From the NCBI GenBank assembly GCA_964503315.1, contig CAZCZL010000005.1, forward strand, positions 5,335 through 69,334: a stretch of DNA of 64,000 nt. Reading direction: 5' to 3'. Below, in pieces: positions 5,851 through 58,363 of this stretch (positions within the stretch are counted from its first letter, which is position 1; every line of letters begins with the position of its first letter). The notes beneath the pieces were generated by a model that ran no database searches, was not told where the DNA came from, and saw nothing but the letters and a program-made list of their open reading frames with translations. Position numbers and translations under genes: made by a program. Source of the DNA: an uncultured Ignavibacteriales bacterium. Its GTDB lineage: Bacteria > Zixibacteria > MSB-5A5 > GN15 > FEB-12.

Positions 5851-6266
5851 ACCATTCGGAAAAGTCTTAATAGTGGTTTGACCGCTTGTGTGGTCTTACA
5901 GGTGTAAATCTCACGGTATAAATGCGAAGGTGGCCGCTCCGCCGACTCAACGCGAGTAGATGATCGTGACCGGATCATCGATGGACGGAGTTGCCTGTAG
6001 CATAAATCACTTTATTGAACGCGTACTGCACTAGTTCACGTCTCGTTGGCTTTTTCGGACGAGGGGTAAGTGACGCCAACTCAACCGGCCTTGCAGAAGG
6101 TATGGAAGGGAGGTGGATTTACAGAGTAGAGTAACAACACGCCGCCGATGCGCATCCATCAACTACAGGCATCGTCCGGCTCCTTTTGCATTTCAGATTT
6201 GATTCGAAGAATCAGTGTAATCCAAAATACGCTGGGAACTATTGTAAACAGTTGAAAGGAACAAGC

Positions 6267-9200: not shown

Positions 9201-9647
9201 ACCGTTCTCGTCTACAAGAACGGCGCCTCGAACGTCGGCTACACTCTGCCGGCGAACGACACGCTGACTATCTGGACCGCGATGGCGGTTGTCCGTCCGA
9301 CCGGCGGCACCACTGCTCAGGGTCTGGATTCCTTGAAGAAAGAGATCGACAAGGCGTTCAAGTGGTATGAAAATGTGCGCCAGTGTACGGCCCCCCCGAC
9401 CTGCTGTATCGGTACCACCGGTAACGTCAACAAGAGCGCTGGCGAAACGCCTGACCTCTCTGACTTGTCACTGCTCGTCGGTTATCTGACGATTCCTGCC
9501 CCGAACAAGCCGGTACTTCCGTGCTTGCCGGAGGCGAACGTCAATGCTACGGGCGGCGTCAACCCTGACCTCTCGGATCTTTCCTTGCTGGTCGGATACC
9601 TGACGATTCCTGCCCCGAACAAGCCGGTCCTGCCGAACTGCCCGTGA
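6267..9647 (+). CDS. secreted Cys/Trp-rich protein of unknown function with C-terminal dockerin-like tandem repeat
   Basis: Start chosen at ATG6267 (GAAAGGA SD 6 nt upstream; signal peptide MTKKWFSIVVLLVVLVGMLAITADA). The ORF track start at 6186 has no signal peptide. There is no recognisable catalytic motif. The C-terminus carries 2x PDLSDLSLLVGYLTIPAPNKPVLP. Confidence 0.8.
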   Translation: MTKKWFSIVVLLVVLVGMLAITADAKLRPSDPRIEKARIFQRSLALDDGLGEAIAGARGYQTSSLGAAQPAVDSRGALVAQTWRDWMANAAIGRTVDHNPPASLFPGVQFAYMEKASAAASDRTRWGWAAYEAVTAGGSYVPAGGKVVVQSDAPGSVEAGSYPKIYVDQTGTALFGSYDFPDQASLPNDMYMHISQDAGPIVGDFGGILDGSVMDNAIRNAGGIEGATTIWPTMAVHEAAGVLTIYLAAFENVGGNDGAMKVFRKVGYAPANPDATWSIVFSDTTFFPSQDISASPVSTRVGVCWPKFTPAGRTAGDTSQNDVWCAISPTGASGTWVRTNITNYSGAGYRAWLEVGCLFDTSDKFHVIWNGSYTDGVDFGNRRCRLFHWSEHVPGSIYTIFDAGWDPTLTDCVGGSNVMNVGKFSIAECDGRLYAIFSAWNWPGVDGTDPVDDCCASASVAQGANGEVYLSVSSSLTGNAWDVPRNLSGSYAPACDTGNCVDDRWASISRFGMDDALYTSPQWANAYTYDLGTGYAGTKYLQVWYVTDRYPGGGILATPQGPLTNNDMRWIRMACVAPVPAALLSVSPGFIAYPEYTKPSVEKQYTLTLENTGNTTLTMGAITAVEDSVKPALPAVPGWLGYSGAPASIPIASSANMTLELNNGGVVTTGPRRLYGKLVFNYGPPAKVLNFPIEFIVADTIVFTTWDSITTQCGIRLTVASNGNMGNNFLGGANMGFPQPSPECDTNGGTLNPGDADIYMGDGSPTIVRKNGATYIASWSIFQDGFASANGFKPLFGFATKGSFSAARWDGYNSGTFCTSDSLVKVEKTWWAPNGATNADSCKFIIQRMRVFPYTIGNSVAGLAIGEAWDWDVPTDTGTSSDVAFTDPTRRLAGMRGFRSVDTAITNHSCYNNSLRYAGSALIAMHLKNCVVETALYGAYNAANDSFVYPAGGFVPEELWANMQSTGYSNESRVTDLHTVLVYKNGASNVGYTLPANDTLTIWTAMAVVRPTGGTTAQGLDSLKKEIDKAFKWYENVRQCTAPPTCCIGTTGNVNKSAGETPDLSDLSLLVGYLTIPAPNKPVLPCLPEANVNATGGVNPDLSDLSLLVGYLTIPAPNKPVLPNCP
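9420..9644 (+). other. dockerin-like module (degenerate loops, duplicated 24-aa segment)
   Basis: GNVNKSAGETPDLSDLSLLVGYLT..(38-aa offset)..ANVNATGGVNPDLSDLSLLVGYLT. Cys residues flank the segments (CCIG.., LPCLP, LPNCP). Confidence 0.55.
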
Positions 9648-9985: not shown

Positions 9986-10014
9986 GGGCGGACGGATGAG
10001 GGGCTGTTTTTTAC

Positions 10015-10042
10015 TTGTATAAATCGGCTAAGTCGTTATATT
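10015..10042 (+). promoter_or_regulatory. candidate sigma-70 promoter (TTGTAT-16-TATATT)
   Basis: -35-like ttgtat at 10015-10020, a 16-nt spacer, and -10 tatatt at 10037-10042. The leader to ATG10290 would be about 240 nt. Confidence 0.35.
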
Positions 10043-10289
10043 GTAGTCTGTACGGCCCTCGCATACAGTCGCCACCGACTTTGTATCTGACCTCAGTTCG
10101 ACCGTACTGACAACGGCGAATCCCTCATCTGTATGCCCCGGCTGTTCGATGATACTTGCATCCCTGGCGCGAACTTTTTGCGGCAGGTCCATGTTCATTC
10201 ATTACGCAAAGAAACAGATGGTCCGCGGAGAATCCGCCGATACAATCAAGGAACTTATGTCACACGCCAACCTGTATAGGAAAGCACTG

Positions 10290-12680
10290 ATGAGCACTTC
10301 GTTACGATCGCTCGCCGCACTATTGCTCAGCGCAGGGCTGCTGTTGATCGCGGTGCAGGGCGCGTCCGCCGTCTCTACCCAGGGACAGTCGCTGCCGAAA
10401 CCGACGATGCTGAAGGGGAAGGTCACTGTTCAATTCACCGAGGATGTTATCCCGTCGCGGATAGTCAACGGGTTTGGACGGGTCTCGGTGGGGGTCGCGT
10501 CACTGGACAATGTGCTCGCCACGGTGAACGCGAGTTCAGCCGAGGCGATCTTTGTCGACGCGAAGAAGCCGGAAGCCGGATCCGACAAGAAGGATCTCAC
10601 CGGATTCTATGAGTTGACCATCCCGGAGGACGCGGATGTATTCGCGACGGTGCGCGAATTGCTGCAGAACCCGAATGTCAAGCTGGCCGAACCGGTTTGG
10701 CTCTACTATATAGACATTTCCACGCCGAATGATCCGCAGTACGCGAGTCAGTACCAGATGTCGCCGCCCGGTCCCGACCCACAGCCGTACAACGCATGGG
10801 ATCTGGAGCGTGGCTCAGACTCCATCAAGATCGCCATCATCGATACCGGTGTACTCTACAACCATCCTGACCTGACCGGCAATATCTGGGTCAACCCGGG
10901 TGAGGATATAGATGGAGATATGGCGGTCTGGGATCCGGGCGACATGAACGGGATCGATGATGACGGGAATGGATTCATCGATGATCTGGTCGGCTGGGAT
11001 TTCGTGAACGCGATGAGTTCGGTCTGGCCGGGTGAAGATGGGGTCACTCGCGACAATAATCCGAGCGACCACAATGGTCACGGCACGCATTGCGCGGGGA
11101 TCTCCGCCGCGATGACGAATAACGGAACCAACGTGACCGGCGTGGCCGGTGGCTGGTTCGGCGGACACCGTTCGTCACGCGGTTGCCGCATCATGTGCAT
11201 CCGCGCCGGTGGGACGACAGCCGCCGGATTGGGTGAACTCAATTCCAACGATCTCGCCGCGGCCGTGAATTACGCCGCGAATAATGGCGCGCACGTCATT
11301 AATGGGAGTTGGGGTGGCGGGTCTTTCAGCTCCGCGCTCAATTCCGCCATGTTCAATGCTGTTTCGGCGGGTGTGTCGTTCATTCACTCCGCTGGAAACG
11401 ACAATGTTGATGTTGAAGGATGGCACGACCAGGTGCCCGGTGTGGTGACTGTTGCCGCGACCAACAACGCCGACCAGAAGTGGGTCTGGAGCTCGTCACA
11501 GGGTTCCAACTACGGGACCTGGATAACCGTCAGCGCGCCCGGACAGAATATTCTCTCGACCGTGTCGAATTCCTATTCTCCCAGTACGGCGATATATACG
11601 GGTACGTCCATGGCCGCGCCGTATGTGGCGGGGTTGAACGCGCTGATACGGTCGATGATGCCGTCGCTGACGCGCGCGCAGGTTGATTCGATCATTACGG
11701 TGACGACTGACAATATTGACGCGCAGAATCCATCGTATGTCGGATTGCTCGGCACCGGTCGCGTGAACGCGTTCACGGCGCTCTCCGGTCTGGCGAACGC
11801 CAAGTTCACCTCGAACGTGACCGACGCGAATGTTCCGTTCACGGTTAACTTCACCGATCAGTCGCCGAACTCGCCAAGCGCGTGGGATTGGTCGTTCGGC
11901 GATGGCGGTACTTCGACCGACCAGAATCCTTCGCACGCGTACAACATCCCCGGGGTTTACGATGTTTCGCTGAAGATCACGGAGGCAAATGGGCTCGGCG
12001 AAGAGCATCTGAATAATTACATTTGGGCGCGCGCGGATACGATCAAGATCGATTCGCTTATCGTTGACCCGGGGACCAAGCCGGTCTTTACGGTTCGTCT
12101 GGCGAACACGGCGCAAGTCAAGACGATGATGCTGCCGTTCTCCGCGTTCAATGACCAGGGGATCACGCTGGATTCATTCTCGGTGGTCGGCACCCGTTGC
12201 GCGGCCTTCGAGCAAGTGGCGTTGGATGGCGGCGATGGAATGACGACCTTCGGCATCGACCTTCGACCGACGCTCACCGGCACACCGAACTACATGACGG
12301 TCGGCAGCGGTACGATCGTAAAGCTGTATTTCAATATACCTTCCACGGCGGCCAAGGGGACGGTGGTGACGATCGATACGTTGTCGTTGGGATTGGGTGG
12401 TTCGAAGAAGCCAAAGATCGCGGCGACGCTGGCGGATTACTGGCCGGTATTTAAGCCGGGGAAGATCGTGGTTCGGCCATGTATGCGGGGCAAGATGTTC
12501 TGCGGGCCGGGGCTCCCTGACCTGACGGATCTCAGTATATTGATCTCCTACCTGACGACCACGAGTCCGGTGCCGGATCCGTATGGTGGCAATGTGAACG
12601 GGGTTGGCAATATTGACATTTCCGACCTTTCTTACTTGATCGCCTATCTGGTTGCCGGGGGGAACCCACCGCCGAATTGA
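10290..12680 (+). CDS. secreted subtilisin-family (S8) serine peptidase with PKD domain and C-terminal dockerin-like module
   Basis: Asp/His/Ser triad motifs IAIIDTGV, HGTHCAGI and GTSMAAPYVAG. PKD-like FTVNFTDQSPNSPSAWDWSFGDGGTSTDQNPSHAYNIPGVYDVSLKI (about 11802-11995). Start at ATG10290 gives signal peptide MSTSLRSLAALLLSAGLLLIAVQGASA with an AGGAAA SD. Confidence 0.9.
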   Translation: MSTSLRSLAALLLSAGLLLIAVQGASAVSTQGQSLPKPTMLKGKVTVQFTEDVIPSRIVNGFGRVSVGVASLDNVLATVNASSAEAIFVDAKKPEAGSDKKDLTGFYELTIPEDADVFATVRELLQNPNVKLAEPVWLYYIDISTPNDPQYASQYQMSPPGPDPQPYNAWDLERGSDSIKIAIIDTGVLYNHPDLTGNIWVNPGEDIDGDMAVWDPGDMNGIDDDGNGFIDDLVGWDFVNAMSSVWPGEDGVTRDNNPSDHNGHGTHCAGISAAMTNNGTNVTGVAGGWFGGHRSSRGCRIMCIRAGGTTAAGLGELNSNDLAAAVNYAANNGAHVINGSWGGGSFSSALNSAMFNAVSAGVSFIHSAGNDNVDVEGWHDQVPGVVTVAATNNADQKWVWSSSQGSNYGTWITVSAPGQNILSTVSNSYSPSTAIYTGTSMAAPYVAGLNALIRSMMPSLTRAQVDSIITVTTDNIDAQNPSYVGLLGTGRVNAFTALSGLANAKFTSNVTDANVPFTVNFTDQSPNSPSAWDWSFGDGGTSTDQNPSHAYNIPGVYDVSLKITEANGLGEEHLNNYIWARADTIKIDSLIVDPGTKPVFTVRLANTAQVKTMMLPFSAFNDQGITLDSFSVVGTRCAAFEQVALDGGDGMTTFGIDLRPTLTGTPNYMTVGSGTIVKLYFNIPSTAAKGTVVTIDTLSLGLGGSKKPKIAATLADYWPVFKPGKIVVRPCMRGKMFCGPGLPDLTDLSILISYLTTTSPVPDPYGGNVNGVGNIDISDLSYLIAYLVAGGNPPPN
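12501..12677 (+). other. dockerin-like module
   Basis: CGPGLPDLTDLSILISYLTTTSPVPDPYGGNVNGVGNIDISDLSYLIAYLVAGG. The second loop, NVNGVGNIDISD, is EF-hand-like; the first loop is truncated. Confidence 0.6.
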
Positions 12681-48733: not shown

Positions 48734-48806
48734 TGACCCCAACGGGAGTCGAACCCGTGTTACCGCCGTGAAAGGGCAGTGTCCTAGGCCACTAGACGAT
48801 GGGGTC
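48734..48806 (-). tRNA. tRNA-Glu (anticodon UUC)
   Basis: The minus-strand read GACCCCATCGTCTAGTGGCCTAGGACACTGCCCTTTCACGGCGGTAACACGGGTTCGACTCCCGTTGGGGTCA has a 7-bp acceptor stem, a CTTTCAC anticodon loop and a GGTTCGA T-loop. It is close to the E. coli tRNA-Glu pattern. CCA is not encoded. Confidence 0.9.
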
Positions 48807-49463: not shown

Positions 49464-50795
49464 ATGCAGCTCGGCTCGAAACGATTTCTCGCTCTCGCCC
49501 TCTTCACTACCCTGCTTATCATCCTGGTGAACTTTGCCTGGTGGTCGTATTACCAGCGGACCGAGAAGTTGCTGGAACATCAACTGAGCCGACGGCTCCA
49601 GTCTATCGCCCAGTCATTCGCCAAGACTATGCCGACCTCGCTTGTCGACAGCCTGCCGTTTGCCTCGGTCGACCAGTACAGACAGGTATTGCGCCTGCTG
49701 AATGATATACGAACCGCCGACTCGCTGGCGGAGATATTTATTCTCGACGACCGGTATGAGTATATCGCGACCAGTTCTCCCGAGGCGGACAGCATCTATT
49801 TTCTGGCCGGGATGAACGGATCGTACATTGATTCACTCTTCTTTTCGATGACCCCACACGCGATCGTCACCCCCGCCTATCAGACCGGGAGTCTTTATCT
49901 AAAATCGGCGTTTGCGCCGCTTCTGGGTGAGGATTCCTCGGTGGTGGCGGTGGTGGGAGTGGAAGCGAATGTCGATTATTTTGATGACCTCTCGCTCTTG
50001 CGCCGGAATCTGCTCTATGCGACTGGAGTGTCGACTGTGGGGGGACTCATTCTCGGGATTCTCTTCCTGGCTCTCCAACAACGATTAAACAAAGCGGAGC
50101 AGCAGCTTTTCCTTGGGCAGACGCATGCGTATCTCGGGCGTATGGTGGCGGTCGTTTCGCATGAACTGAAAAACCCGCTGATGATCATCCGCGGCTCGGC
50201 CGAGCGAATACGGAAAAAAACGGGAGCGGAGGAAGCCTCGTTTATCCTTGAAGAGACCGACCGGCTGAATAATATCGTCAGTGGGTATCTGGCGTTCGCC
50301 AAGGCGGAAGGTTCGCTTCTGGTGGGGGAGTCAACCGAATCGTTTGACCTGACCGAATTGCTTACATCCGCCGCAAAACATCTTGGAGAACGGTTCGCCG
50401 ACCAGCAAATCGACTGGAGAGAACAGCCGACATCCGAACCGGTGCTGATAACCGGCTATCGAAGATCCCTCCGGCAAGTGATTCTCAATTTGCTCGTGAA
50501 TGGGGTTGAAGGGTGCCTTGAGGCAGGCAAACCGGTTCGATTGGGAGCGGAGATAGAGCAGAAGAGCAAGGGCCTGGTCGCAATTCGTGTTACCAATTAC
50601 GGCACGGAATTGAGCCCGAAAGAGATCCAAAAACTCTTCACGCCATTCCACACGACCAAGCAGACTGGCTCCGGATTGGGTCTGTATGTCAGTCGTAAAT
50701 TAGTTGAAGAGATGGGGGGAAAGCTGAATCTTGTAAGCAAGACCGGCAGTGGCGCGGTGAGCGCTATCATTGAACTGCCGACCCATTCATCCTGA
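49464..50795 (+). CDS. sensor histidine kinase (2 TM with periplasmic domain, HisKA + HATPase_c)
   Basis: H-box VSHELKNPL, N-box LNLLVNGVEG, G-boxes GSGLGLYVSRK. Confidence 0.85.
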   Translation: MQLGSKRFLALALFTTLLIILVNFAWWSYYQRTEKLLEHQLSRRLQSIAQSFAKTMPTSLVDSLPFASVDQYRQVLRLLNDIRTADSLAEIFILDDRYEYIATSSPEADSIYFLAGMNGSYIDSLFFSMTPHAIVTPAYQTGSLYLKSAFAPLLGEDSSVVAVVGVEANVDYFDDLSLLRRNLLYATGVSTVGGLILGILFLALQQRLNKAEQQLFLGQTHAYLGRMVAVVSHELKNPLMIIRGSAERIRKKTGAEEASFILEETDRLNNIVSGYLAFAKAEGSLLVGESTESFDLTELLTSAAKHLGERFADQQIDWREQPTSEPVLITGYRRSLRQVILNLLVNGVEGCLEAGKPVRLGAEIEQKSKGLVAIRVTNYGTELSPKEIQKLFTPFHTTKQTGSGLGLYVSRKLVEEMGGKLNLVSKTGSGAVSAIIELPTHSS

Positions 50796-50800
50796 GGAAT

Positions 50801-52129
50801 ATGGCCAGAATATTAGTTGTCGATGACGAACCGAAAATGACGTCGCTGGTCTGCGGCGAACTGGAGGATGCCGGTCATGCCGTCACCACCACGACCAAGC
50901 CATCCGATGCCCTCACCCTGCTGGAACGCCATTCGTTTGATATCGTGATCACCGATCTCTCCATGCCGGAAGTGTCGGGCATGGTGGTTCTCGAGAAGGC
51001 GCTCGAAAAGCCGGGGACCGAGGTGGTGATGATGACCGCCTTCGGGACGGTCGAGACCGCGGTCGCCGCCATGAAAAAAGGGGCGGCGGATTACCTGCTG
51101 AAACCGTTCTCGCTGGATGAACTTACAATTACGGTCGGCAAACTCGTAGAGAAACAGCGTCTCACGTCGCTGGCTACGCACTTCCAGGAGGAAGCCAGAG
51201 TCGAAATGGCCGATACGCTTATCGGCTCCTCCCCCGCGGCAGAGAAAGTCCGAAGGCTGATATCCCAGGTCGCCACGACCGAGACCACTGTTTTGTTGAC
51301 CGGACGTTCCGGGACCGGCAAGGAGCTGGCCGCCCGGATGATCCATGACCTCTCCCCCCGCCGCGCCAAGCCATTTATCGCCGTAAACTGCGCCGCCATT
51401 ACCGAGACCCTGCTTGAGTCCGAACTCTTCGGCCATGAGAAGGGAGCATTTACCGGCGCGGTTGCCCGGAAGCGTGGACGGTTCGAACTGGCCGATGGGG
51501 GGACCATCTTTCTGGATGAAATTGGTGAGATGTCCGCCCAGATGCAGTCCAAGCTTTTGAGGGTGCTCGAAGAGCGCCAGTTGGTGCGGGTCGGCGGGGT
51601 CGACACCGTGGCGGTTGATGTCCGCATAGTGGCCGCGACCAATCGCGTGCTCAAAGACGATATCCGGTCCGGGGCGTTTCGGGAGGATCTGTATTTCCGG
51701 CTGGCGGTCTTCCCTATCCCGATGCCGAGCCTGGCGGAGCGGGGAGATGACGTTGTGGAATTGGCGAGCTATTTCCTGGCGCGGCAGCGCTATCCGCATG
51801 TTCGACTTGATGCTCCCGTGGCAGAGATGCTCCGGTCGTACGACTGGCCCGGCAATATCCGGGAGCTTCGGAATGTCCTGGAGCGTGCCACCATTCTGGC
51901 CGGCGGCGAGCCGCTGACGGTCGATGATTTCGCGCTGGAGACCGAGGATGCTCCCATTGCGGCGGAGGGGATGATTCCGCCGGGGTCGGGACTCGAGGAT
52001 ACGGAAAAAAGCATGATCCTCAGTGCGCTCCAGACCGCCAAGGGAAACAAGACTGAAGCGGCCAAGTTGCTGAAGATAACCCGTCGCCGGCTCTACAGCC
52101 GGATGAAGGCGCACGATATCCCATGGTAG
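50801..52129 (+). CDS. sigma-54-dependent response regulator (NtrC family)
   Basis: Receiver (ILVVDDE..DLSMPE). AAA+ domain (GRSGTGKELAARMIH, GAFTGA, FLDEIGEM, RVVAATN). Fis-type HTH (GNKTEAAKLLKITRRRLYSRMK). Confidence 0.9.
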   Translation: MARILVVDDEPKMTSLVCGELEDAGHAVTTTTKPSDALTLLERHSFDIVITDLSMPEVSGMVVLEKALEKPGTEVVMMTAFGTVETAVAAMKKGAADYLLKPFSLDELTITVGKLVEKQRLTSLATHFQEEARVEMADTLIGSSPAAEKVRRLISQVATTETTVLLTGRSGTGKELAARMIHDLSPRRAKPFIAVNCAAITETLLESELFGHEKGAFTGAVARKRGRFELADGGTIFLDEIGEMSAQMQSKLLRVLEERQLVRVGGVDTVAVDVRIVAATNRVLKDDIRSGAFREDLYFRLAVFPIPMPSLAERGDDVVELASYFLARQRYPHVRLDAPVAEMLRSYDWPGNIRELRNVLERATILAGGEPLTVDDFALETEDAPIAAEGMIPPGSGLEDTEKSMILSALQTAKGNKTEAAKLLKITRRRLYSRMKAHDIPW

Positions 52130-52256
52130 CCACGTAAATGGTAGGTGAGCGTTCCGGGACGGAACCTGTACCGGCCGGTACATAACGAGGAGTTTCTGTT
52201 CACAACACAGCGTCGCGGTTGGATATGAGACAACAACTTAGCATGGTTATGCGGAA

Positions 52257-52271
52257 CGGCACAGCGATTGA
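52257..52271 (+). promoter_or_regulatory. possible sigma-54 (-24/-12) promoter: cGGCAC-N5-TTGa
   Basis: CGGCACAGCGATTGA has GG at 52258-59 and TTG at 52268-70, the correct 10-nt register versus TGGCAC-N5-TTGC. The -12 C is replaced by A. It lies about 30 nt upstream of ATG52301 and directly downstream of the NtrC-type regulator. Confidence 0.3.
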
Positions 52272-52300
52272 TGGTAAGGGAGTTGAAAGAGAGATATGCT

Positions 52301-53332
52301 ATGCGTAAGATACTCCCATACATCCTAATCGCGCTGGCGCTGCTGATCGGACAAGGACTACTGGCGCAGTCCGGGGTTCTGCGAGACAAGGTCCAGGAAG
52401 AACTCGACCGGACCGACCAATTGATCGCTCAGGCCGAGGAGCAGTTGCAATCGATGGAGAACCCGGCTGGCCTGGCATTTCTGGAGCAGGCCAAAGTGAC
52501 GCAGCAGCAGGCCAAAGATCTATTTGCCGGCAATCAGTTTGTCGAAGCGCGCCGCATGACATTGCTGGCACGGGATCTCTTGCGCAAGGCGCTCCGAACC
52601 AATCGTGCCACGGAGCTTGGATCCGACCAGGCCCTCCGTAAACTTGAGCAGGCCGAAGATAAATTGGAGCGGGCGCGCGAGCTGCTTGCGGAGAGTGAAA
52701 ATCAGCCGTCGACCGCTCTCTTGGATGTCGCCACTGACAATCTGAAGAGAGCCTGGGATTTTTATACCGCCGGTAAGTTCATCCCGGCGATAAAGCTGGC
52801 GGAGCAGGTTGAGAAGACCGCAGATCGAATACTGAGCCGCGGCGGTTCAGGGTCGTCCGCCAACTATCAGCGACGACTTGAGTCCGTACGTGACGCTATA
52901 GACAAAGCTGGCGAAGTTGTGGAGGGGTGCCAGATGGAAGAGGGAAGATCGCTGCTTGATCAGGCAGTAAAGGCTCTTGAATCGGCCGAGCAACTGGCAG
53001 ATAAAGGCCAGACGAGGGCGGCGCTTCAAATGCTCCAGAAAGCCAAAGTCTTTGCCGCACGAGCAATGCGCGCTTGCGAAACAGGGGATGAGAATCTGGC
53101 CGCTCGTTACCAGCGCCTGCTGGGTCTGGCCGATCAACTGAATGAACAGAGCCAGTCCCTGAGTGGCGACAATAGAGAAGCAGTGGACCTGTTACTGACT
53201 AAAGCATACGAGCAGCTTGAGATCGCCAGGACGGCGATCGATGCCGCCGATGTCGCCAAGGCGACCCCGGCGCTCCAGGCGGCAAACCTGGCGATTCGCC
53301 AGGCCGAAGAGATTATTCTGGAGAGCAATTAG
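52301..53332 (+). CDS. exported all-helical protein with four about 75-aa internal repeats
   Basis: Signal peptide MRKILPYILIALALLIGQGLLAQ. Four helical-hairpin units, each of the form L..AE..L....N.....LL..A...L..A..........A...A..A. Confidence 0.75.
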   Translation: MRKILPYILIALALLIGQGLLAQSGVLRDKVQEELDRTDQLIAQAEEQLQSMENPAGLAFLEQAKVTQQQAKDLFAGNQFVEARRMTLLARDLLRKALRTNRATELGSDQALRKLEQAEDKLERARELLAESENQPSTALLDVATDNLKRAWDFYTAGKFIPAIKLAEQVEKTADRILSRGGSGSSANYQRRLESVRDAIDKAGEVVEGCQMEEGRSLLDQAVKALESAEQLADKGQTRAALQMLQKAKVFAARAMRACETGDENLAARYQRLLGLADQLNEQSQSLSGDNREAVDLLLTKAYEQLEIARTAIDAADVAKATPALQAANLAIRQAEEIILESN

Positions 53333-53352
53333 CATCTAAAGGAACATAGGAT

Positions 53353-54621
53353 TTGTTCAGACGCTATGTCGCGGTAGTCCTGGTTCTGATAACCATAGCC
53401 GGTCGGGTCGATGCTGAGCATCGACCGTTTGCGTTCAAGGCAGGCATCGGCTACGATTACCTCTCTCAACGCTATTTCCTCGATTCATTGGCAGTCTCCG
53501 GCCCGGATACCGTCCTGACCCGCTTTGCTCTGTCCAGCGAATATCTCAATGACCTCAAAGGGAGCATGGAGTTGGCGTACCGCTACGCTGGAACCAATAA
53601 GTTTGACCTTGCGACCCGGCTCGACCAGACGAAAGACATTACCCGCGTGAAGGTTACGTCGAATTGGCAGGCTCTCGCCAGCCTATTCGCCTTGCGCTGG
53701 CGGAACCAAGTCGATTGGCGACATCAGTTTGACGATAGTAGTTCGACTCTGGGCAGCTATGCCACCGCGCTCAGCAATCTGAAAGTCCGACGACCCGTTA
53801 CTGGCTCCACGACGCTCTGGGGGCAGGCCCAGGGCGAGTTGACCGACTTCTATGGTGATATTGGGACAGGGTACGATTTCTACAGGGTCTGGGGGAAACT
53901 GGGATTGGAAAAGGCATTCGGCTATTCCTCCCTACTCTCAATGAACGGCTTTATCATCGATCGCGAGGTATCAGACTCGACCACGCTCAATTACCGGGCG
54001 TATGGCGTCGAGGGGTCGTTTTCCGGCCTGCTCTCGCGGCTTCAGATCGATCTGCTGACCCGCTGGGAGAAGCGGGATTACAACCGCTCCGGCAGCGATG
54101 ATGATTACTCCCGGTTTGAACTGGACTCCCGGAGCAGGGTTGACCTCGGACGCGGCTACTTCTCAGGTCAGTTGCTGGAGCTAGAGACTACTTCCTACGA
54201 CCCTTCTGACCCACTCAATGTCGACTACAGCCGGATCCGCTGGAATGCCACGATCGGACTGACCCTTGGAAGTCTTGAACTGGCGGCAGGGCCGGACTGG
54301 GAGCTTCTCAATCAGGCGGCAGGGTCGGACAGCACGACTGAGGAGTATCGGGAGGCTGCCGGGCTCCTGGAGCTGAATTTGGTGACCACTCGTGGACTGT
54401 TCCTATCGGCCGAAAACCGGCTCGGCAAACGAACTCTCGACCACCCCAGTGAATACCAGTCAGACTTTAGCTTCTATGAGCTGACCCTACTGGGGAATTG
54501 TCTCCTGTGGAAGCATGTCGATGTGAACCTTCTGCTTTCGTCCACCTGGGAATGGCACGACCTGGAGTCCGAGGATAACCGGGCTGTACTGGTATCCGCC
54601 GGCATCTCCTATCGGTTGTAG
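53353..54621 (+). CDS. putative outer-membrane beta-barrel protein
   Basis: TTG start. Signal peptide FRRYVAVVLVLITIAGRVDA. Alternating-hydrophobicity strands rich in Y/R/D/G/S. C-terminal LVSAGISYRL. Confidence 0.65.
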   Translation: MFRRYVAVVLVLITIAGRVDAEHRPFAFKAGIGYDYLSQRYFLDSLAVSGPDTVLTRFALSSEYLNDLKGSMELAYRYAGTNKFDLATRLDQTKDITRVKVTSNWQALASLFALRWRNQVDWRHQFDDSSSTLGSYATALSNLKVRRPVTGSTTLWGQAQGELTDFYGDIGTGYDFYRVWGKLGLEKAFGYSSLLSMNGFIIDREVSDSTTLNYRAYGVEGSFSGLLSRLQIDLLTRWEKRDYNRSGSDDDYSRFELDSRSRVDLGRGYFSGQLLELETTSYDPSDPLNVDYSRIRWNATIGLTLGSLELAAGPDWELLNQAAGSDSTTEEYREAAGLLELNLVTTRGLFLSAENRLGKRTLDHPSEYQSDFSFYELTLLGNCLLWKHVDVNLLLSSTWEWHDLESEDNRAVLVSAGISYRL

Positions 54622-55125: not shown

Positions 55126-55375
55126 TGCTTGTACGATTGCCGCGCATGACTGGCTCCTTAGTCGCTTCATTATTCAGCGCAGGCGTGCTCCCAACCAATG
55201 GCGCTGGCGGGTGATGATCCGGTGGCGCGGTGGAGTCTCCCTCGGCGGTGAATTGACCTCGGCTCTCGGCGGTTTGTGCTTCCCTTTGAATATCGGTCGG
55301 ACTCTGTAGATGGTCGGATTTTGATACTACCGGTTGTAGTAACTTCCTTTCTGGTGCCAGATCTCGAATTTTCTC

Positions 55376-55404
55376 TTGACAAAATCAGGTTATGGCCCTA
55401 TGTT
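55376..55404 (+). promoter_or_regulatory. candidate sigma-70 promoter (TTGACA-17-TATGTT)
   Basis: ttgaca at 55376-81 and tatgtt at 55399-404. The leader to ATG55787 would be about 375 nt. Confidence 0.35.
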
Positions 55405-55786
55405 GCGGGCGTCTAGGGAAATAGTTGTGTGAATAACGCTTCTGTTTTGAATCTGCAGCACCTTTGGTAACGTTAAAACAACATTAACGTTAGCGTATCG
55501 AAAGCTCGACCTTCAGGTTTAATCAAACGAGTTTGAAACCTAAGCGGATAAGTCTGTCCGTACGGTTTTTCCAAGACTCAATATTCACTTTGATCAGTAG
55601 TTCAGTGAGTCCGTGTGACGTTGTGCCGTTGGCGCATCACCAGCACATGAGACATCTGGATCTGACGGGTCCGATACCCGATCTCTGATGAGATTCATAT
55701 CGGAAACTTAGGGGTAAGTCATCCTGGGGCATCTCGGGAAGATAACCCAAACTTCGATGACCTTTAGGTTCTTAAAGGAGCATTAA

Positions 55787-58363
55787 ATGATGCAAAAAAG
55801 AAATTTATATTCTTTGTTGCTGATCTCCTTTTTAGTGGTATTCGCCTCGTCTATGGCGTTCGCGAACCAGGTGACGTTCGAGTCCAAAACGCTGCCGCGG
55901 TGCTTCAACTCCGCGTCCAACGTAACGGCGATCGTCTCTGCTGATTCGGTGAGCGCGATAGAGATCGTGGTCGTGGTTGATGGTAACGTTACGTTACCGC
56001 TTCCAGGCAGCATCTTCACCTTCGACGCGGGCTTCACAGCTCTGACCGATCGCGTGGTGGATGATACGTCTGGTGTGGACGGTACCTTGCCCGATACGAT
56101 TCGCATTGCCGCTATGTTGCTCAACCCGAGCGCTGGAGCGTTAGCACAAGGAAATCATGTTGTCGGCCGGATAAACTATAGAACCAATGACGTCTGCTCA
56201 GGTTCTGGTACCCTTCAGGGCGGCGTTTTCGACTATCCGATCCCGGCAACTGTTACCACCCAGTTTGTTGATGCCGCCACCTCTACCATTCTTCCGGTTG
56301 TCGTGAACAATGGTACGGTGACGATCACCAACCTCGCGCCGACTATTGCTGCAATTCCCAACGGTACACTGTACTGGGGCCAGACCTTCTTGGCGACGGC
56401 TGCCGGTTCCGATGCTGATATGGCGAATGGCTGCGAGACCTTGACCTATGCCAAGGTTGCTGGTCCGGCTGCTATGACCGTAAATCCGACCTCTGGCGCC
56501 ATTTCCTGGTTGACCACTGGCGCTGATGTCTGCACCCATAACGTGACCATTTCGGTTACCGACAAGTGCGGATCCTCGGCCCAGACGTCATTCCAGATCT
56601 GCGTCCAGAATAAAGTCCCTGTCATCACCTGCCCGCCGAGCCCGATCATGATCACGTTGGGCGACGTGGCCAATGGCGATGTCAACGCGACTGATGCCGA
56701 TGCTGGTCCGAAGCCGCTTATCTATAGCGTAGTGAGCTTCAACGGCCCGGGCACGGTGACCATGAACCCGTCGACCGGCGTATTCAGCTGGCCGACCGTG
56801 AACGATGACATCGCCTATCTTGGCTCCTTCACGCTCGTCGTGATGGTCACGGATAGCGCCAACGTCTGCAGCCCCTGCAGCCCCTCCAACGCTGACACGT
56901 GCTCCGTCACGATCAACGTTAACTGGGGTAAGGTCGTGATCGAGAAGATCCACAACCAGCTTCAGGGTGAGTTTGCGGAAGTTGACATCGTTCTTGGCAC
57001 CAACTACCCGATCGGCGGTTTCGACCTCCTGATCAAGTATGATAACTCTGCCCTGACCCTCACCGAGGTGCTCCCGGGTGGATTCATCACTGATTGCGGA
57101 TGGGAATACTTCACTTATCGTTTCGGCGCTGATGGCAACTGCAACGGCGGCTGCCCGAGCGGACTCGTCCGTATCGTCTCCATCGCCGAGACCAATAATG
57201 GTAACAACCATCCGGATTGCTTCACCAACTATCCGCCGCCTCCGGGCCTCGATAGCGTCATTGCTACCCTGAAGTTCCTGGTCTCCAACGACCGGACTTT
57301 GGAATGCCAGTACGCCCCGATCGAGTTCTTCTGGATCGACTGCGGTGATAACGGTCTGTCGTCGGTCGACGGTGACTCCCTGCTCATTTCCCGTTATGTT
57401 TACGGGTACGGCGGTGGCGATCCGTACTTCCATATTGAAGCGACTGCCGGTATCGAATTCCCGACCACGTTCGGCGCCCAGGAAGAGTGCGATATCTTCA
57501 CTCCTGGCAAGCCGTCCACGTGGCGCATCGTTGATTTCTTCAACGGTGGCGTTGATATCGTCTGCGCCGACTCGATCGACGCCCGTGGCGACATCAACTT
57601 GAACGAGTTCGCGTATGAAATCGCTGACGCGGTTCTCTTCTCGCGGTACTTCATCTACGGTCTTGGGGTCTTCACGATCAACCAGGCCGGTCAGGTGGCT
57701 GCTACCGACGCGAACGCTGATGGTCTGACGTTGACGGTTGCCGACCTCGTCTACTTGATCCGTGTGGTCGTGGGCGACGAGCTTCCGTATGACAAGGTTG
57801 CGGCCGTGAATGCCAACTACACGTTTGAAAACGGCGTGCTCGCGATCGACGGTGTCGATCTGGGTGCCGCTTTCGTCGTGGTGTCTGGCGATGTCACCCC
57901 GACTTTGACCGCTCAGAACGTTGGCATGCAGTATGCCTTTGACGGCACGAACACTCGCATCCTGGTTTCGCCAGTGATCGACGAGAACGTTACCAACATC
58001 ACCGGATTCTCAGGCACGTTCCTGACCGGCTTGAATGGTAACATCGTGTCCATCGAAATGGCTACTGTCCAGGGTCAGCCGGTTGCCGGAAAGATCATTC
58101 CGAAGCACTTCGGCCTGGCTCAGAACTATCCGAACCCGTTCAACCCGGCTACCACGATTGAGTTCGCTCTGCCGGTCGCCAGCAACTACACCCTGACGAT
58201 TTATAACGTCACCGGTCAGGTTGTCACGACCTTTGAGGGGACTGAAGAAGCTGGTATGCACCAGGTGATCTGGAATGCTAATGAAGTCTCTTCTGGTATC
58301 TACTTCTACAAGTTGAATGCCGGTGCCTTCAGCAGCACGAAGAAGATGGTCCTGCTCAAGTAA
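55787..58363 (+). CDS. scaffoldin-like surface protein: beta-sandwich (cohesin-like?) - 2 cadherin/He_PIG-like Ig - cohesin - dockerin - spacer - T9SS C-terminal sorting domain
   Basis: AAGGAG SD. Signal peptide MMQKRNLYSLLLISFLVVFASSMAFA. Cohesin pattern VVIEKIHNQLQGEFAEVDIVLGTNYPIGGFDLLIKYDNSALTLTEVLPGGF. Dockerin DARGDINLNEFAYEIADAVLFSRYF..DANADGLTLTVADLVYLIRVVVG. CTD QNYPNPFNPATTIEF...SGIYFYKLNAGAFSSTKKMVLLK. Confidence 0.85.
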   Translation: MMQKRNLYSLLLISFLVVFASSMAFANQVTFESKTLPRCFNSASNVTAIVSADSVSAIEIVVVVDGNVTLPLPGSIFTFDAGFTALTDRVVDDTSGVDGTLPDTIRIAAMLLNPSAGALAQGNHVVGRINYRTNDVCSGSGTLQGGVFDYPIPATVTTQFVDAATSTILPVVVNNGTVTITNLAPTIAAIPNGTLYWGQTFLATAAGSDADMANGCETLTYAKVAGPAAMTVNPTSGAISWLTTGADVCTHNVTISVTDKCGSSAQTSFQICVQNKVPVITCPPSPIMITLGDVANGDVNATDADAGPKPLIYSVVSFNGPGTVTMNPSTGVFSWPTVNDDIAYLGSFTLVVMVTDSANVCSPCSPSNADTCSVTINVNWGKVVIEKIHNQLQGEFAEVDIVLGTNYPIGGFDLLIKYDNSALTLTEVLPGGFITDCGWEYFTYRFGADGNCNGGCPSGLVRIVSIAETNNGNNHPDCFTNYPPPPGLDSVIATLKFLVSNDRTLECQYAPIEFFWIDCGDNGLSSVDGDSLLISRYVYGYGGGDPYFHIEATAGIEFPTTFGAQEECDIFTPGKPSTWRIVDFFNGGVDIVCADSIDARGDINLNEFAYEIADAVLFSRYFIYGLGVFTINQAGQVAATDANADGLTLTVADLVYLIRVVVGDELPYDKVAAVNANYTFENGVLAIDGVDLGAAFVVVSGDVTPTLTAQNVGMQYAFDGTNTRILVSPVIDENVTNITGFSGTFLTGLNGNIVSIEMATVQGQPVAGKIIPKHFGLAQNYPNPFNPATTIEFALPVASNYTLTIYNVTGQVVTTFEGTEEAGMHQVIWNANEVSSGIYFYKLNAGAFSSTKKMVLLK
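56927..57409 (+). other. cohesin-like module
   Basis: G-x-F-x-V-D-I-V-L....PIGGFDLLIKYDNSALTLTEVLPG matches the cohesin core (G..v.vpv......i...df...YD...L....v.pG). It contains a Cys-rich insertion (CNGGCPSG..HPDC). Confidence 0.6.
57578..57778 (+). other. dockerin module
   Basis: DARGDINLNEFAYEIAD + helix AVLFSRYFI, then DANADGLTLTVAD + helix LVYLIRVVV. Confidence 0.6.
58115..58360 (+). other. T9SS C-terminal sorting domain
   Basis: LAQNYPNPFNPATTIEFALPVASNYTLTIYNVTGQVVTTFEG...SGIYFYKLNAGAFSSTKKMVLLK. Same family as 13719-13976. Confidence 0.8.

What the first reader, a model, noticed from the sequence alone, without database searches (positions are those of the whole stretch)
55787..58363. 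Cohesin, dockerin and a T9SS sorting domain in one 858-aa protein: candidate outer-membrane scaffoldin of a non-cellulosomal cohesin-dockerin display system
Seen in sequence: one secreted protein contains five module types.
- A module with the cohesin core pattern (..GEFAEVDIVLGTNYPIGGFDLLIKYDNSALTLTEVLPGG.., about 56927-57409).
- An N-terminal beta-sandwich-like module that may be a second, divergent cohesin (about 55865-56330).
- Two cadherin/He_PIG-like Ig modules.
- A two-loop dockerin (57578-57778).
- A Por-type T9SS C-terminal domain (58115-58360).
Established knowledge: cohesin-dockerin pairs assemble clostridial cellulosomes, where scaffoldins are anchored through SLH domains or sortase. 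T9SS CTDs direct cargo across the outer membrane and to covalent surface attachment in Bacteroidota-like bacteria.
Inference: this protein would be a T9SS-anchored scaffoldin. The three dockerin-tailed proteins at 164-12680 have no T9SS CTD of their own and are obvious candidate ligands. Carrying both a cohesin and a dockerin, the protein could also self-polymerise or dock onto another scaffoldin. None of the candidate cargo is a carbohydrate-active enzyme; it is an adhesin, a protease and an unknown protein. That points to an adhesion/proteolysis surface complex rather than a cellulosome.
Basis: partly seen in the sequence, partly recalled or inferred. Interest (0 to 1): 0.78.

Follow-up and report, generated by a model that had tools for sequence, protein, structure and literature searches.

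The report
T9SS surface protein with cohesins, dockerin
This gene from a Zixibacteria-like genome encodes a secreted surface protein with two cohesin-fold modules, a variant dockerin and a type IX secretion sorting tail, which suggests that cellulosome-style "plug and socket" assembly is used on the outer membrane of non-cellulolytic Gram-negative bacteria, probably to display proteases and adhesins.

Summary
ORF 55787-58363 (+) encodes 858 aa with this layout: signal peptide, cohesin 1, two cadherin/He_PIG Ig modules, cohesin 2, dockerin-like module, unknown beta module, T9SS type A CTD.

- **Cohesins:** Pfam misses both in this sequence. High-confidence AlphaFold models of both modules hit only cohesins in the PDB, with the top 50 hits all cohesins in each case.
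- **Dockerin:** Pfam misses it in all 56 orthologues scanned. A profile-profile comparison with real dockerins gives 95% probability, against at most 2.4% in shuffled controls. Both Ca loops are almost invariant but one residue longer than canonical.

The scaffoldin reading is partly supported. The protein is not a one-off. Cohesin 2, the dockerin, the beta module and the CTD form a fused cassette, with a median 1-residue gap between cohesin and dockerin. The cassette occurs in at least 1012 protein clusters (50% identity) and was seen in MAGs labelled Zixibacteria, Ignavibacteria and Calditrichaeota, sometimes repeated within one protein.

Genes for CTD-less proteins with canonical C-terminal dockerins (S8 proteases, Ig adhesins) lie near cassette genes in 5 of 18 loci, against 2 of 70 control loci (p = 0.0035). 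That favours a real cohesin-dockerin display system.

Binding, the role of the fused dockerin and the T9SS machinery remain untested. Similar systems have been inferred in Cloacimonadota and Chlorobiota, so this is a new variant of a known kind.

The parts
55787..58363 (+). Whole gene: 858-aa secreted multi-module protein. It is conserved full-length at 50-98% identity among the 120 best of 527 hits; the taxon-named ones are all Candidatus Zixiibacteriota.
55787..55864 (+). Signal peptide, residues 1-26 (MMQKRNLYSLLLISFLVVFASSMAFA / NQ). Read from the sequence, no predictor run.
   Evidence: sequence; N-terminus conserved in orthologues
55865..56332 (+). Cohesin 1, the distal cohesin-fold module, residues 27-182. 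At HMMER sensitivity it was found only in this orthologous group.
   Evidence: AF2 pLDDT 90.7; Foldseek top 50 all cohesins, E 6.6e-8, TM up to 0.78; 9 of 147 cassette representatives carry it
56336..56605 (+). Ig module 1 (He_PIG), residues 184-273
   Evidence: PF05345 E 1.1e-6, above the gathering score; 51 of 56 orthologues
56624..56920 (+). Ig module 2 (cadherin-like), residues about 280-378
   Evidence: PF00028 18.7 bits, below the gathering score; cadherin-23 in PDB at E 0.008; family profile against cadherins E 2.7e-14
56924..57571 (+). Cohesin 2, residues 380-595. A cohesin fold with Cys-rich insertions and eight invariant cysteines. It is the first part of the conserved cassette.
   Evidence: cysteine couplings C507-C593 and C437-C478
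57572..57784 (+). Variant dockerin, residues 596-666. Two F-hand repeats, D602-x-N-x-N-G..E611..D614 and D641-x-N-x-D-G......D653. Each loop is 13 rather than 12 residues. It is fused to cohesin 2 with a gap of about 1 residue.
   Evidence: hhalign 95.3% against real dockerins, with controls; real-dockerin HMM hits orthologues; Ca-ligand positions 93-100% conserved in 304 units; three helices in the AF2 model but pLDDT 47-60
57788..58117 (+). Beta-rich module of unknown fold, residues 668-777. It is the third part of the cassette.
   Evidence: No Pfam or PDB match; co-occurs with cohesin-dockerin in most of the 147 representatives
58127..58360 (+). T9SS type A C-terminal sorting domain, residues 781-858
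   Evidence: TIGR04183 E 8e-13, PF18962 E 7e-12; 56 of 56 orthologues
55375..55786 (+). Conserved promoter and about 380-nt 5' leader. It holds -35 CTTGACA (55375-55381), -10 TATGTT (55399-55404), an invariant box GTCTAGGGAAATAGTTGTGT (55411-55430), hairpin 55467-55492, and an anti-Shine-Dalgarno hairpin 55761-55780.
   Evidence: Alignment of 8 orthologous loci; RNAalifold pairs with compensatory changes; no Rfam match at E <= 10; coordinates
49464..54621 (+). Frequently syntenic upstream block: histidine kinase (49464-50795); sigma-54 NtrC-type regulator (50801-52129); palindrome TGTACCGGCCGGTACA (52167-52182); sigma-54-like promoter (52257-52271); unknown helical exported protein X1 (52301-53332); unknown exported protein X2, read by eye as beta-barrel-like (53353-54621).
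   Evidence: Present in the window, L001, L002, L003, L084 and probably L086. Absent in L085 and L087.
164..5716 (+). Candidate ligand A: 1850-aa Ig-repeat adhesin-like protein with a true C-terminal type I dockerin (residues 1788-1840, nt 5525-5683) and no CTD.
10149..12680 (+). Candidate ligand C: S8 subtilase plus PKD, with a probable C-terminal dockerin (about nt 12522-12650) and no CTD.
6186..9647 (+). Protein B: 1153 aa, no Pfam domain. Its tail holds a duplicated 24-residue unit that is dockerin-like only in its helix pattern. Not confirmed as a dockerin.

Best explanation
The gene encodes a cell-surface display protein. The Sec system exports it through its signal peptide. Its type A CTD then takes it across the outer membrane through the T9SS and leads to covalent anchoring on the cell surface; this step is inferred from what is established about type A CTDs.

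Its membrane-proximal end is a conserved, fused cassette: cohesin 2, Ca-binding dockerin variant, beta module, CTD. The same cassette is shared by more than a thousand different T9SS cargo protein clusters; it was seen in MAGs labelled Zixibacteria, Ignavibacteria and Calditrichaeota. This orthologous group adds two Ig spacers and a second, distal cohesin.

The cohesin modules act as sockets for canonical dockerin tails carried by secreted proteins that have no CTD of their own. Those proteins are S8 proteases and Ig-repeat adhesins, such as A and C in this window. The result would be an adhesive and proteolytic complex held on the outer membrane rather than a cellulosome.

What is shown and what is inferred:
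- Shown: the module identities, the cassette and its distribution, and the genomic association with dockerin-tailed genes.
- Inferred: the binding itself, which cohesin binds which dockerin, the job of the fused dockerin, and surface anchoring.
For: - Module identities: T9SS CTD; cohesin 2; cohesin 1; dockerin.
- Family: full-length orthologues at 50-98% identity; the taxon-named ones are all Zixibacteria.
- Cassette: 1953 clusters at E <= 1e-3 and 1012 at E <= 1e-30. The dominant architecture is [variable]-coh-doc-beta-CTD, with a median cohesin-to-dockerin gap of 1 residue. It is present in MAGs labelled Zixibacteria, Ignavibacteria and Calditrichaeota.
- Association: CTD-less ORFs with C-terminal canonical dockerins occur in 5 of 18 cassette loci against 2 of 70 CTD-only loci, Fisher p 0.0035, odds ratio 13. 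In L004 a gene for an S8 subtilase with a dockerin tail lies directly downstream of the cassette gene. L013 and L016 repeat the architectures of window proteins A and C.
- Precedents: a CTD-bearing scaffoldin-like protein plus dockerin-tailed S8 and C25 peptidases was inferred in Cloacimonadota (PMC8542988). A cohesin/dockerin pair was modelled in Chlorobiota (bioRxiv 10.64898/2026.03.19.712371).
Against: - No binding evidence of any kind exists.
- Proteins A to C are 43 kb from the gene. No dockerin-tailed gene at E < 1e-3 lies within 7-10 kb in seven close orthologue loci; the more distant orthologue locus L070 has one borderline hit at E 0.001.
- The neighbourhood enrichment rests on few loci. 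It may partly reflect taxon-level co-occurrence, because the control loci are mostly Ignavibacteria and Bacteroidota.
- Cohesin 2 is always fused to its own dockerin, so it may be occupied or purely structural.
- It is unclear how CTD-less dockerin proteins would cross the outer membrane.
- No T9SS core gene is in the window.
- The AF2 confidence for the dockerin segment is low, pLDDT 47-60.
Confidence: 0.5

Rival explanations
1. Self-assembling pedestal. The fused dockerin of one cassette plugs into cohesin 2 of a neighbouring cassette, on the same or a different cargo protein. Many T9SS cargo proteins would then be daisy-chained into a Ca-dependent lattice or fibre on the outer membrane. Dockerin-tailed enzymes would be secondary or unrelated.
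For: - Cohesin and dockerin always travel together, with a gap of about 1 residue, in at least 1012 clusters, and as up to 3 or more tandem units in one protein.
- The dockerin is very strongly conserved across paralogues. The 73-residue dockerin HMM gives E about 1e-37 in L010, where the 219-residue cohesin HMM gives 7e-43.
- Ca-ligand residues are 93-100% conserved.
- With essentially no linker, the dockerin may not be able to reach the canonical binding face of its own cohesin (inference from cohesin topology, not tested). That would favour pairing between molecules.
Against: - Direct-coupling analysis on 304 units (Neff 235) finds only 1 cohesin-dockerin pair among the top 50 couplings. 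Such pairs make up 42% of all possible pairs. There is therefore no co-evolving interface, although an invariant interface would also give no signal.
- It does not explain the enrichment of canonical dockerin-tailed genes next to cassette genes.
Confidence: 0.2
2. Rigid structural stalk. The cohesin fold and the Ca-binding dockerin-like helices are only a stiff, Ca-stabilised spacer that holds passenger domains away from the membrane, comparable to Ca-rigidified cadherin linkers. Neither module acts as a receptor or a ligand.
For: - The modules are obligately fused and occur in repeated units.
- The one strong inter-module coupling links L392, which lies between the first two predicted strands of cohesin 2, to A634 in the dockerin linker. 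E395-A634 appears at rank 82. This suggests a fixed packing at the pole of the sandwich.
- The cassette always sits next to the CTD, about 175-195 residues from the C-terminus.
Against: - Both folds belong to families whose established function is mutual recognition.
- It does not explain cohesin 1, which has no fused dockerin.
- It does not explain the neighbourhood enrichment of dockerin-tailed genes.
Confidence: 0.2
3. Plain adhesin. The cadherin/He_PIG and cohesin-fold beta-sandwiches bind an external substrate, another cell or a mineral or polymer surface. The cohesin and dockerin similarity would be only ancestral.
For: - Ig and cadherin-like modules are typical of adhesins.
- The gene has its own strongly conserved promoter and leader. 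It is often linked to a two-component sigma-54 system, which suggests regulated surface remodelling.
Against: - Cohesin-specific fold matches are exclusive, with the top 50 hits all cohesins for both modules.
- The dockerin Ca loops are preserved.
- The reading is not exclusive of the best explanation.
Confidence: 0.1

Closest known systems
Clostridial and ruminococcal anchoring or adaptor scaffoldins (for example C. thermocellum OlpA/OlpC/SdbA, R. flavefaciens ScaB/ScaE)
   Same: - Cohesin-fold modules; the best structural matches are 3ul4 OlpA, 4dh2 OlpC, 4ums ScaB and 5lxv ScaC.
- Cohesins and a dockerin in one polypeptide, as in adaptor scaffoldins.
- A dedicated cell-surface anchoring module at the C-terminus.
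- Partner proteins with C-terminal two-repeat dockerins.
   Different: - The organism is Gram-negative and from the FCB group.
- The anchor is a T9SS type A CTD rather than SLH domains or a sortase signal.
- There is no CBM and no CAZyme cargo.
- The cohesin and dockerin are fused without a linker into a repeated cassette.
- The dockerin loops are 13 residues long and invisible to PF00404.
- Cohesin 2 carries Cys-rich insertions with eight invariant cysteines.
Scaffoldin-like protein of Ca. Stygibacter (Cloacimonadota), Williams et al. 2021, PMC8542988
   Same: - It comes from an uncultured bacterial candidate phylum known from metagenome-assembled genomes.
- Cohesin domains occur together with a conserved CTD that the authors assign to cell-surface attachment, citing a T9SS review.
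- Dockerin-tailed S8 peptidases are the inferred cargo.
- The evidence is purely bioinformatic.
   Different: - The Stygibacter protein is 3755 aa, with tandem cohesins and CBM2/CBM3 modules. Its cargo includes GH18 and GH57 enzymes.
- No fused cohesin-dockerin cassette is described there.
- The present family has only two cohesins, which are Pfam-negative in this sequence, and no CBM.
Non-cellulosomal cohesin/dockerin proteins, for example Archaeoglobus fulgidus cohesin (PDB 2xdh) and the survey of Peer et al. 2009 (the survey is cited from my own knowledge; the paper is not held)
   Same: - Cohesin and dockerin modules occur outside cellulolytic organisms, sometimes in the same protein.
- 2xdh is among the structural hits for both modules.
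   Different: - Those proteins are not T9SS cargo.
- A conserved cohesin-dockerin-beta-CTD cassette has not, to my knowledge, been described.
Chlorochromatium epibiont Cag_2037/Cag_2038 cohesin-dockerin pair (bioRxiv 10.64898/2026.03.19.712371)
   Same: - FCB-group bacterium.
- Non-cellulosomal use of cohesin and dockerin, together with long Ig-repeat proteins, for surface exposure.
   Different: - The cohesin and dockerin there are on two separate proteins, and export is by T1SS.
- There is no CTD anchor and no fused cassette.

Membership tests
Cohesin (PF00963; type I/II/III cohesin modules) | Nine-stranded beta-sandwich (jelly-roll) cohesin fold | tested here: met
   Cohesin 2: AF2 block-mean pLDDT mostly 81-93, lower in two loops. 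Foldseek top 50 all cohesins, best E 7.8e-10, TM 0.81. Cohesin 1: pLDDT 90.7, top 50 all cohesins, best E 6.6e-8, TM 0.78.
Cohesin (PF00963; type I/II/III cohesin modules) | Significant sequence match to the family profile | tested here: inconclusive
   The window sequence scores 12.5 bits against a gathering score of 24.1. However, 29 of 56 orthologues match at E <= 0.01 (best 1.2e-8), and the family profile hits PDB cohesins at 5.7e-4. For cohesin 1 the best hit is a cohesin at E 0.12, and hhalign against cohesin 2 gives 0.6%.
Cohesin (PF00963; type I/II/III cohesin modules) | Ca-dependent binding of a dockerin on the 8-3-6-5 sheet | not testable with these tools
   No multimer prediction or experiment was available. 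Only an indirect genomic association exists.
Dockerin (PF00404 Dockerin_1) | Two tandem F-hand repeats of about 22 residues with Ca-ligand pattern D-x-[DN]-x-[DN]-G ... D, each followed by a helix | tested here: met
   Both repeats are present. D602, N604, N606, E611, D614 and D641, N643, D645, G646, D653 are 93-100% conserved in 304 units. The final Asp is at position 13, not 12, in both loops, and the linker is 5 residues longer.
Dockerin (PF00404 Dockerin_1) | Significant match to the Pfam family model | tested here: not met
   No hit for the isolated segment even at E <= 10, and none in 56 of 56 orthologues at E <= 0.01.
Dockerin (PF00404 Dockerin_1) | Homology to verified dockerins by more sensitive comparison | tested here: met
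   hhalign 95.3%, E 2e-8, 60 columns, against a profile of the protein A tail plus 3ul4_B, 5nrm_B and 1daq_A. Shuffles gave at most 2.4%. An HMM of the same four sequences hits the segment in orthologues and paralogues, at E 8.9e-6 to 3e-3.
Dockerin (PF00404 Dockerin_1) | Compact three-helix fold | tested here: inconclusive
   AF2 predicts three helices, but pLDDT is 47-60. Intra-dockerin couplings between repeat 1 and repeat 2 (I603-T640, R600-A644, Y610-V660) support a compact domain.
T9SS type A cargo (TIGR04183 / PF18962 CTD) | C-terminal sorting domain above the curated cutoff, plus an N-terminal signal peptide | tested here: met
   48.2 bits against a cutoff of 23, and 45.9 bits against 27. 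The signal peptide was read from the sequence.
T9SS type A cargo (TIGR04183 / PF18962 CTD) | T9SS machinery (PorK/L/M/N, Sov/SprA, PorU/PorV) in the same genome | not testable with these tools
   None of the window's ORFs scanned matches a T9SS core family, and the rest of the genome is not available. Indirect support: a second CTD protein lies at 13005-13979, and the CTD is conserved in 56 of 56 orthologues.
Scaffoldin of a cohesin-dockerin display system | One or more cohesins plus a cell-anchoring module in one secreted protein | tested here: met
   Two cohesin folds plus the CTD.
Scaffoldin of a cohesin-dockerin display system | Dockerin-bearing partner proteins encoded in the same genome | tested here: met
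   Protein A has a true dockerin and protein C a probable one. Related loci show adjacent dockerin-tailed genes.
Scaffoldin of a cohesin-dockerin display system | Demonstrated specific cohesin-dockerin pairing that assembles the partners | not testable with these tools
   This needs AF-Multimer or AF3 with Ca, or pull-down or ITC.

The most novel reading that the evidence does not exclude
The fused cohesin-dockerin-beta-CTD block is an undescribed, self-assembling pedestal of T9SS cargo, so far seen in MAGs labelled Zixibacteria, Ignavibacteria and Calditrichaeota. The variant 13-residue-loop dockerin of one molecule would plug into the cassette cohesin of the next. Dozens of different cargo proteins would then be chained into a Ca-dependent outer-membrane lattice. 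Free cohesins, such as cohesin 1 here, would recruit CTD-less proteases and adhesins through canonical dockerins. This would be a Gram-negative, non-cellulolytic counterpart of the cellulosome with two orthogonal cohesin-dockerin specificities. In this orthologous group its expression would be gated by a conserved, structured 5' leader.
Probability: 0.2. Interest if true: 0.8.

Novelty: new variant of a known kind. Interest (0 to 1): 0.55.

Why it matters
Cohesin-dockerin assembly is the textbook mechanism of Gram-positive cellulosomes and a widely used tool for protein engineering.

- **Scope of the mechanism.** A large, unannotated family couples both modules to the T9SS sorting domain. It comprises at least a thousand clusters, and every member whose source name was looked up is labelled 'hypothetical protein' or only 'T9SS sorting domain protein'. 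That would extend the mechanism to outer-membrane display in uncultured FCB-group phyla, with proteases and adhesins as the likely cargo. This bears on how sediment and soil Zixibacteria degrade detrital protein and attach to particles.
- **Annotation gap.** The cassette exposes a blind spot: Pfam's Dockerin_1 model misses the 13-residue-loop variant completely, and Pfam's Cohesin model misses about half of the orthologues.
- **Testable material.** It offers candidate cohesin-dockerin pairs that may be orthogonal to existing ones, for direct testing and for synthetic biology.

Tried and rejected
- **Direct Pfam and NCBIfam scans.** Scans of the protein and of the isolated segments gave no significant cohesin or dockerin call. 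Family-level and structural evidence was needed.
- **Family dockerin HMM against the window.** An HMM of the family's dockerin segment, searched against all window ORFs with filters off, did not hit the tails of A, B or C. The variant and canonical dockerins are therefore related only at profile-profile level.
- **Cohesin 1 against cohesin 2 and the beta module.** hhalign found no sequence similarity, below 1%. The fold search settled the matter instead.
- **Cis or homotypic cohesin 2-dockerin interface.** Mean-field DCA on 304 units gave essentially no inter-module couplings. The result is a weak negative, not decisive.
- **Sigma-54 promoter upstream of the target.** None was found with correct spacing. 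The conserved promoter is sigma-70-like. The sigma-54-like site and the palindrome lie upstream of X1 instead.
- **Rfam.** Nothing matched the leader, at gathering scores or at E <= 10.
- **X1 and X2.** Neither has a Pfam or NCBIfam match. Only X2 was searched against the PDB, as a profile, with no match.
- **ORF 13005-13979.** This CTD protein lies next to the dockerin genes. It is not detectably a cohesin by sequence, and its fold was not tested.
- **Search with the cohesin 1 profile.** It returned only N-terminal fragments of orthologues.
- **T9SS core genes.** None was found among the window's ORFs scanned.
- **Literature.** No paper combines Zixibacteria with dockerin, T9SS or type IX secretion. 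Peer et al. 2009 is not held.
- **Genome scan.** The genome-contig scan was dominated by the CTD peptide pattern, so it does not give a clean census of the family.

Full report
**1. Observation.**
Standard HMM scans confirm only part of the description.
- The T9SS type A CTD is confirmed: TIGR04183 E 8e-13 and PF18962 E 7e-12, residues 781-855.
- One He_PIG Ig module is confirmed: residues 184-273, E 1.1e-6.
- The cadherin match at 298-378 is below Pfam's threshold.
- Neither Cohesin nor Dockerin_1 is reported for the protein. The isolated 379-594 segment gives Cohesin at only 12.5 bits, E 0.18.

**2. The protein family.**
The protein belongs to a well-conserved family. A homology search returned 527 hits. 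The best 120 are almost all full-length proteins of about 850 aa at 50-98% identity. Where a source names them, they are called 'T9SS type A sorting domain-containing protein'; the taxon-named ones come from Candidatus Zixiibacteriota MAGs. I aligned 56 of them (A1).

**3. The two cohesins.**
For the main cohesin the evidence is as follows.
- Of the 56 orthologues, 29 match Pfam Cohesin at E <= 0.01, the best at 1.2e-8.
- A profile of residues 376-680 finds cohesins as its 15 best PDB matches, the best being 4ums ScaB at E 5.7e-4.
- An AlphaFold2 model of 376-680 is confident over 376-595, with block-mean pLDDT mostly 81-93 and lower values in two loops.
- In Foldseek against the PDB, the 50 best hits of that model are all cohesins. 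Examples are 3ul4_A OlpA (E 7.8e-10, TM 0.81 normalised by target length), 4dh2, 5lxv, 2ccl, 1aoh, type II and type III cohesins, and the archaeal 2xdh.
- The alignments span about 215 columns. The module therefore runs to residue 595, not 541. It carries insertions with eight invariant cysteines.

The N-terminal module (residues 24-186) has no usable sequence signal. Its best PDB hit is a cohesin at E 0.12, and hhalign against cohesin 2 gives 0.6%. Its AF2 model, however, is very confident (pLDDT 90.7, pTM 0.86). Again the top 50 Foldseek hits are all cohesins, with E 6.6e-8 and TM up to 0.70 normalised by query and 0.78 by target.

**4. The dockerin.**
The negative results are these.
- Residues 596-666 get no Pfam hit in any of the 56 orthologues.
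- No PDB dockerin is hit by the profile.
- An HMM of this segment does not hit the tails of the upstream proteins.

The positive results are these.
- The tail of protein A is a verified dockerin: PF00404 E 4.8e-9, 3ul4_B 5.6e-5, CelS 1daq 4e-4. I built a small profile from that tail and three PDB dockerin fragments printed.
- hhalign of the family segment against this profile gives 95.3% probability, E 2e-8. It covers 60 columns and both repeats. Each Ca loop is one residue longer than canonical, and the linker is five residues longer.
- Controls were low: at most 2.4% in thirty column shuffles, 1.7% for the reversed profile, and at most 1.4% for the protein's other modules.
- The same four-sequence HMM hits this segment directly in orthologues and paralogues: L002 at 8.9e-6, L084 at 6e-5, L001 at 2e-4.
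- In 304 aligned units the Ca-ligand positions are almost invariant: D602 100%, N604 99%, N606 95%, E611 93%, D614 100%, D641 98%, N643 98%, D645 98%, D653 100%.
- AF2 predicts three helices but with low confidence, pLDDT 47-60.
- Direct couplings between repeat 1 and repeat 2 (I603-T640, R600-A644, Y610-V660) support a compact domain.

I conclude that this is a divergent dockerin with 13-residue loops.

**5. The cohesin 2-dockerin pair is a fused cassette.**
I searched 83 loci fetched from GTDB genomes with domain HMMs. The block cohesin 2-dockerin-beta module (followed by the CTD) turns up at the C-terminal end of other, often much longer proteins. Examples are ORFs of about 1090, 1436, 2376 and 3117 aa, in MAGs labelled Zixibacteria, Ignavibacteria/Ignavibacteriales and Calditrichaeota.

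An exhaustive profile search of 1.84 billion cluster representatives found 1953 proteins at E <= 1e-3 and 1012 at E <= 1e-30. Most match end to end over the 300-position bi-module. The proteins are 474-3057 aa long and carry up to six matched stretches each.

Among the 147 best representatives:
- the dominant architecture is [variable]-cohesin-dockerin-beta-CTD;
- the median gap between cohesin and dockerin is 1 residue;
- the last dockerin ends a median of 192 residues from the C-terminus;
- several proteins repeat the unit two or three times;
- only 9 of 147 carry the N-terminal cohesin of the target's orthologous group.

The ten representatives looked up are unnamed or called 'hypothetical protein'.

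**6. Is there an interface between cohesin 2 and its dockerin?**
I ran mean-field DCA on 304 units (Neff 235).
- Among the top 50 couplings, 36 lie within the cohesin and 13 within the dockerin. Two of the cohesin couplings are cysteine pairs, C507-C593 at rank 1 and C437-C478 at rank 17. These look like disulfides.
- Only one of the top 50 is a cohesin-dockerin pair (L392-A634). Such pairs make up 42% of all possible pairs.

This gives no support for a co-evolving cis or homotypic interface. It cannot exclude an invariant one.

**7. Evidence for a real cohesin-dockerin system.**
The real-dockerin HMM finds CTD-less ORFs with C-terminal canonical dockerins in 5 of 18 loci that carry the cassette. 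Those loci are L004 (two ORFs), L006 (two ORFs), L007, L008 and the window. It finds them in only 2 of 70 loci fetched through the CTD alone. Fisher's exact test gives p 0.0035, odds ratio 13.

Pfam identifies the neighbours as follows:
- an S8 subtilase directly downstream of the cassette gene in L004;
- a GSDH-like protein, also in L004;
- three proteins with Dockerin_1 above the gathering score, in L006 and L008.

In the control loci, L013 carries an Ig-repeat adhesin like protein A, and L016 carries an S8+PKD protease like protein C.

There are caveats. The numbers are small. The control loci differ in taxonomy. Seven loci holding close orthologues of the target (L001-L003, L084-L087) show no dockerin-tailed gene at E < 1e-3 within 7-10 kb, and the more distant orthologue locus L070 has one borderline hit at E 0.001. 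In the window, A to C are 43 kb away. Of the three, A is confirmed, C is probable (Pfam 15.9 bits, hhalign 94.5%), and B is unconfirmed (8.7%).

**8.
In the window and in L001, L002, L003 and L084 (and probably L086), the gene follows a conserved block. The block is a histidine kinase, a sigma-54 NtrC-type regulator, an unknown helical exported protein of about 350 aa, and an unknown exported protein of about 420 aa whose sequence I read by eye as beta-barrel-like. Downstream genes vary, and L085 and L087 lack the block.

A perfect palindrome, TGTACCGGCCGGTACA, and a sigma-54-like site precede the first unknown gene.

All eight loci keep a gap of 470-1260 bp before the target gene. Within that gap, all eight share a sigma-70-like promoter, an invariant 20-nt box, hairpins with compensatory changes, and a hairpin that sequesters the Shine-Dalgarno sequence. 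Rfam has no match.

**9. Mechanism.**
The best-supported reading is a T9SS-anchored display protein whose cohesin modules capture dockerin-tailed, CTD-less proteases and adhesins. I give it a confidence of 0.5.

Three things remain open: the role of the fused dockerin, which cohesin binds which dockerin, and how CTD-less partners would cross the outer membrane. The rival readings are a self-assembling pedestal or lattice, a Ca-stiffened stalk, and a plain adhesin. No T9SS core gene is in the window.

**10. Comparison with what is known, and verdict.**
- The closest structures are clostridial and ruminococcal anchoring-scaffoldin cohesins.
- The closest concept is the CTD-bearing scaffoldin-like protein with dockerin-tailed S8 and C25 peptidases inferred in Ca. 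Stygibacter, Cloacimonadota (PMC8542988).
- A cohesin/dockerin pair has recently been modelled in Chlorobiota (bioRxiv 10.64898/2026.03.19.712371).
- Nothing in the held literature links Zixibacteria with dockerins or the T9SS.

Three features are new here: the fused cohesin-dockerin-beta-CTD cassette and its size as a family, the Pfam-invisible 13-residue-loop dockerin, and the Cys-rich cohesin.

I rate it a new variant of a known kind, with interest 0.55.

Noticed in passing
window 55375-55786: A conserved sigma-70-like promoter (CTTGACA / TATGTT) is followed by a 5' leader of about 380 nt. The leader holds a 20-nt box that is nearly invariant (one or two substitutions in two loci) in 8 orthologous loci (GTCTAGGGAAATAGTTGTGT, 55411-55430), hairpins with compensatory changes, and a hairpin that sequesters the Shine-Dalgarno sequence (55761-55780). 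RNAalifold also pairs the 5' end, GCGUC, with the AUGAUGC start region. There is no Rfam match even at E <= 10. It may be an undescribed regulatory leader.
   Followed up: partly
window 49464-54621: A block lies directly upstream of the target in at least 5 of 8 orthologous loci. It consists of a histidine kinase, a sigma-54 NtrC-type regulator, a perfect palindrome TGTACCGGCCGGTACA (52167-52182), a sigma-54-like site (52257-52271), and two unknown exported proteins. X1 is helical (52301-53332). X2 reads by eye as beta-barrel-like (53353-54621). Neither has a Pfam or NCBIfam match; X2 also has no PDB sequence match. Function unknown.
   Followed up: partly
window 13005-13979: A second T9SS type A CTD protein (324 aa) lies directly downstream of the three dockerin-tailed genes. 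Its N-terminal domain of about 240 residues has no family match. It is not detectably a cohesin by sequence, and its fold was not tested.
   Followed up: partly
window 56924-57571 (residues 380-595): Cohesin 2 carries eight invariant cysteines (C437, C452, C456, C478, C507, C519, C568, C593) in insertions absent from classical cohesins. Coupling analysis pairs C507-C593 (rank 1) and C437-C478 (rank 17), which suggests disulfides.
   Followed up: partly
window 9400-9647 (C-terminus of ORF 6186-9647): Protein B ends in two copies of the same 24-residue unit, PDLSDLSLLVGYLTIPAPNKPVLP, flanked by cysteines. The helix pattern is dockerin-like, but the Ca loops are degenerate and hhalign against real dockerins gives only 8.7%. 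The rest of the 1153-aa protein has no Pfam domain.
   Followed up: partly
L008 1269-3929 and 4486-6879: Two adjacent genes both carry the cohesin-dockerin-beta-CTD cassette. The second has the target's overall layout but a compact cohesin without the Cys-rich insertions. A gene for a protein with a canonical dockerin tail (3-866) lies just upstream.
   Followed up: partly
L011 9914-13682: Three cohesin-dockerin-beta units lie in three overlapping reading frames of a Zixibacteria MAG chromosome. They are either tandem genes or one repeat protein broken by frameshifts.
   Followed up: no
P0028 (UniRef A0A1C9U4P8, uncultured bacterium pAW1): An orthologue at 56% identity is named 'FG-GAP repeat protein' by its source. 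Among the families matched by 56 scanned orthologues (P0028 included), no FG-GAP family appears, so the name looks like a misannotation.
   Followed up: no
window 48734-48806 (-): A single tRNA gene is the only Rfam match above the gathering score in the whole window.
   Followed up: no
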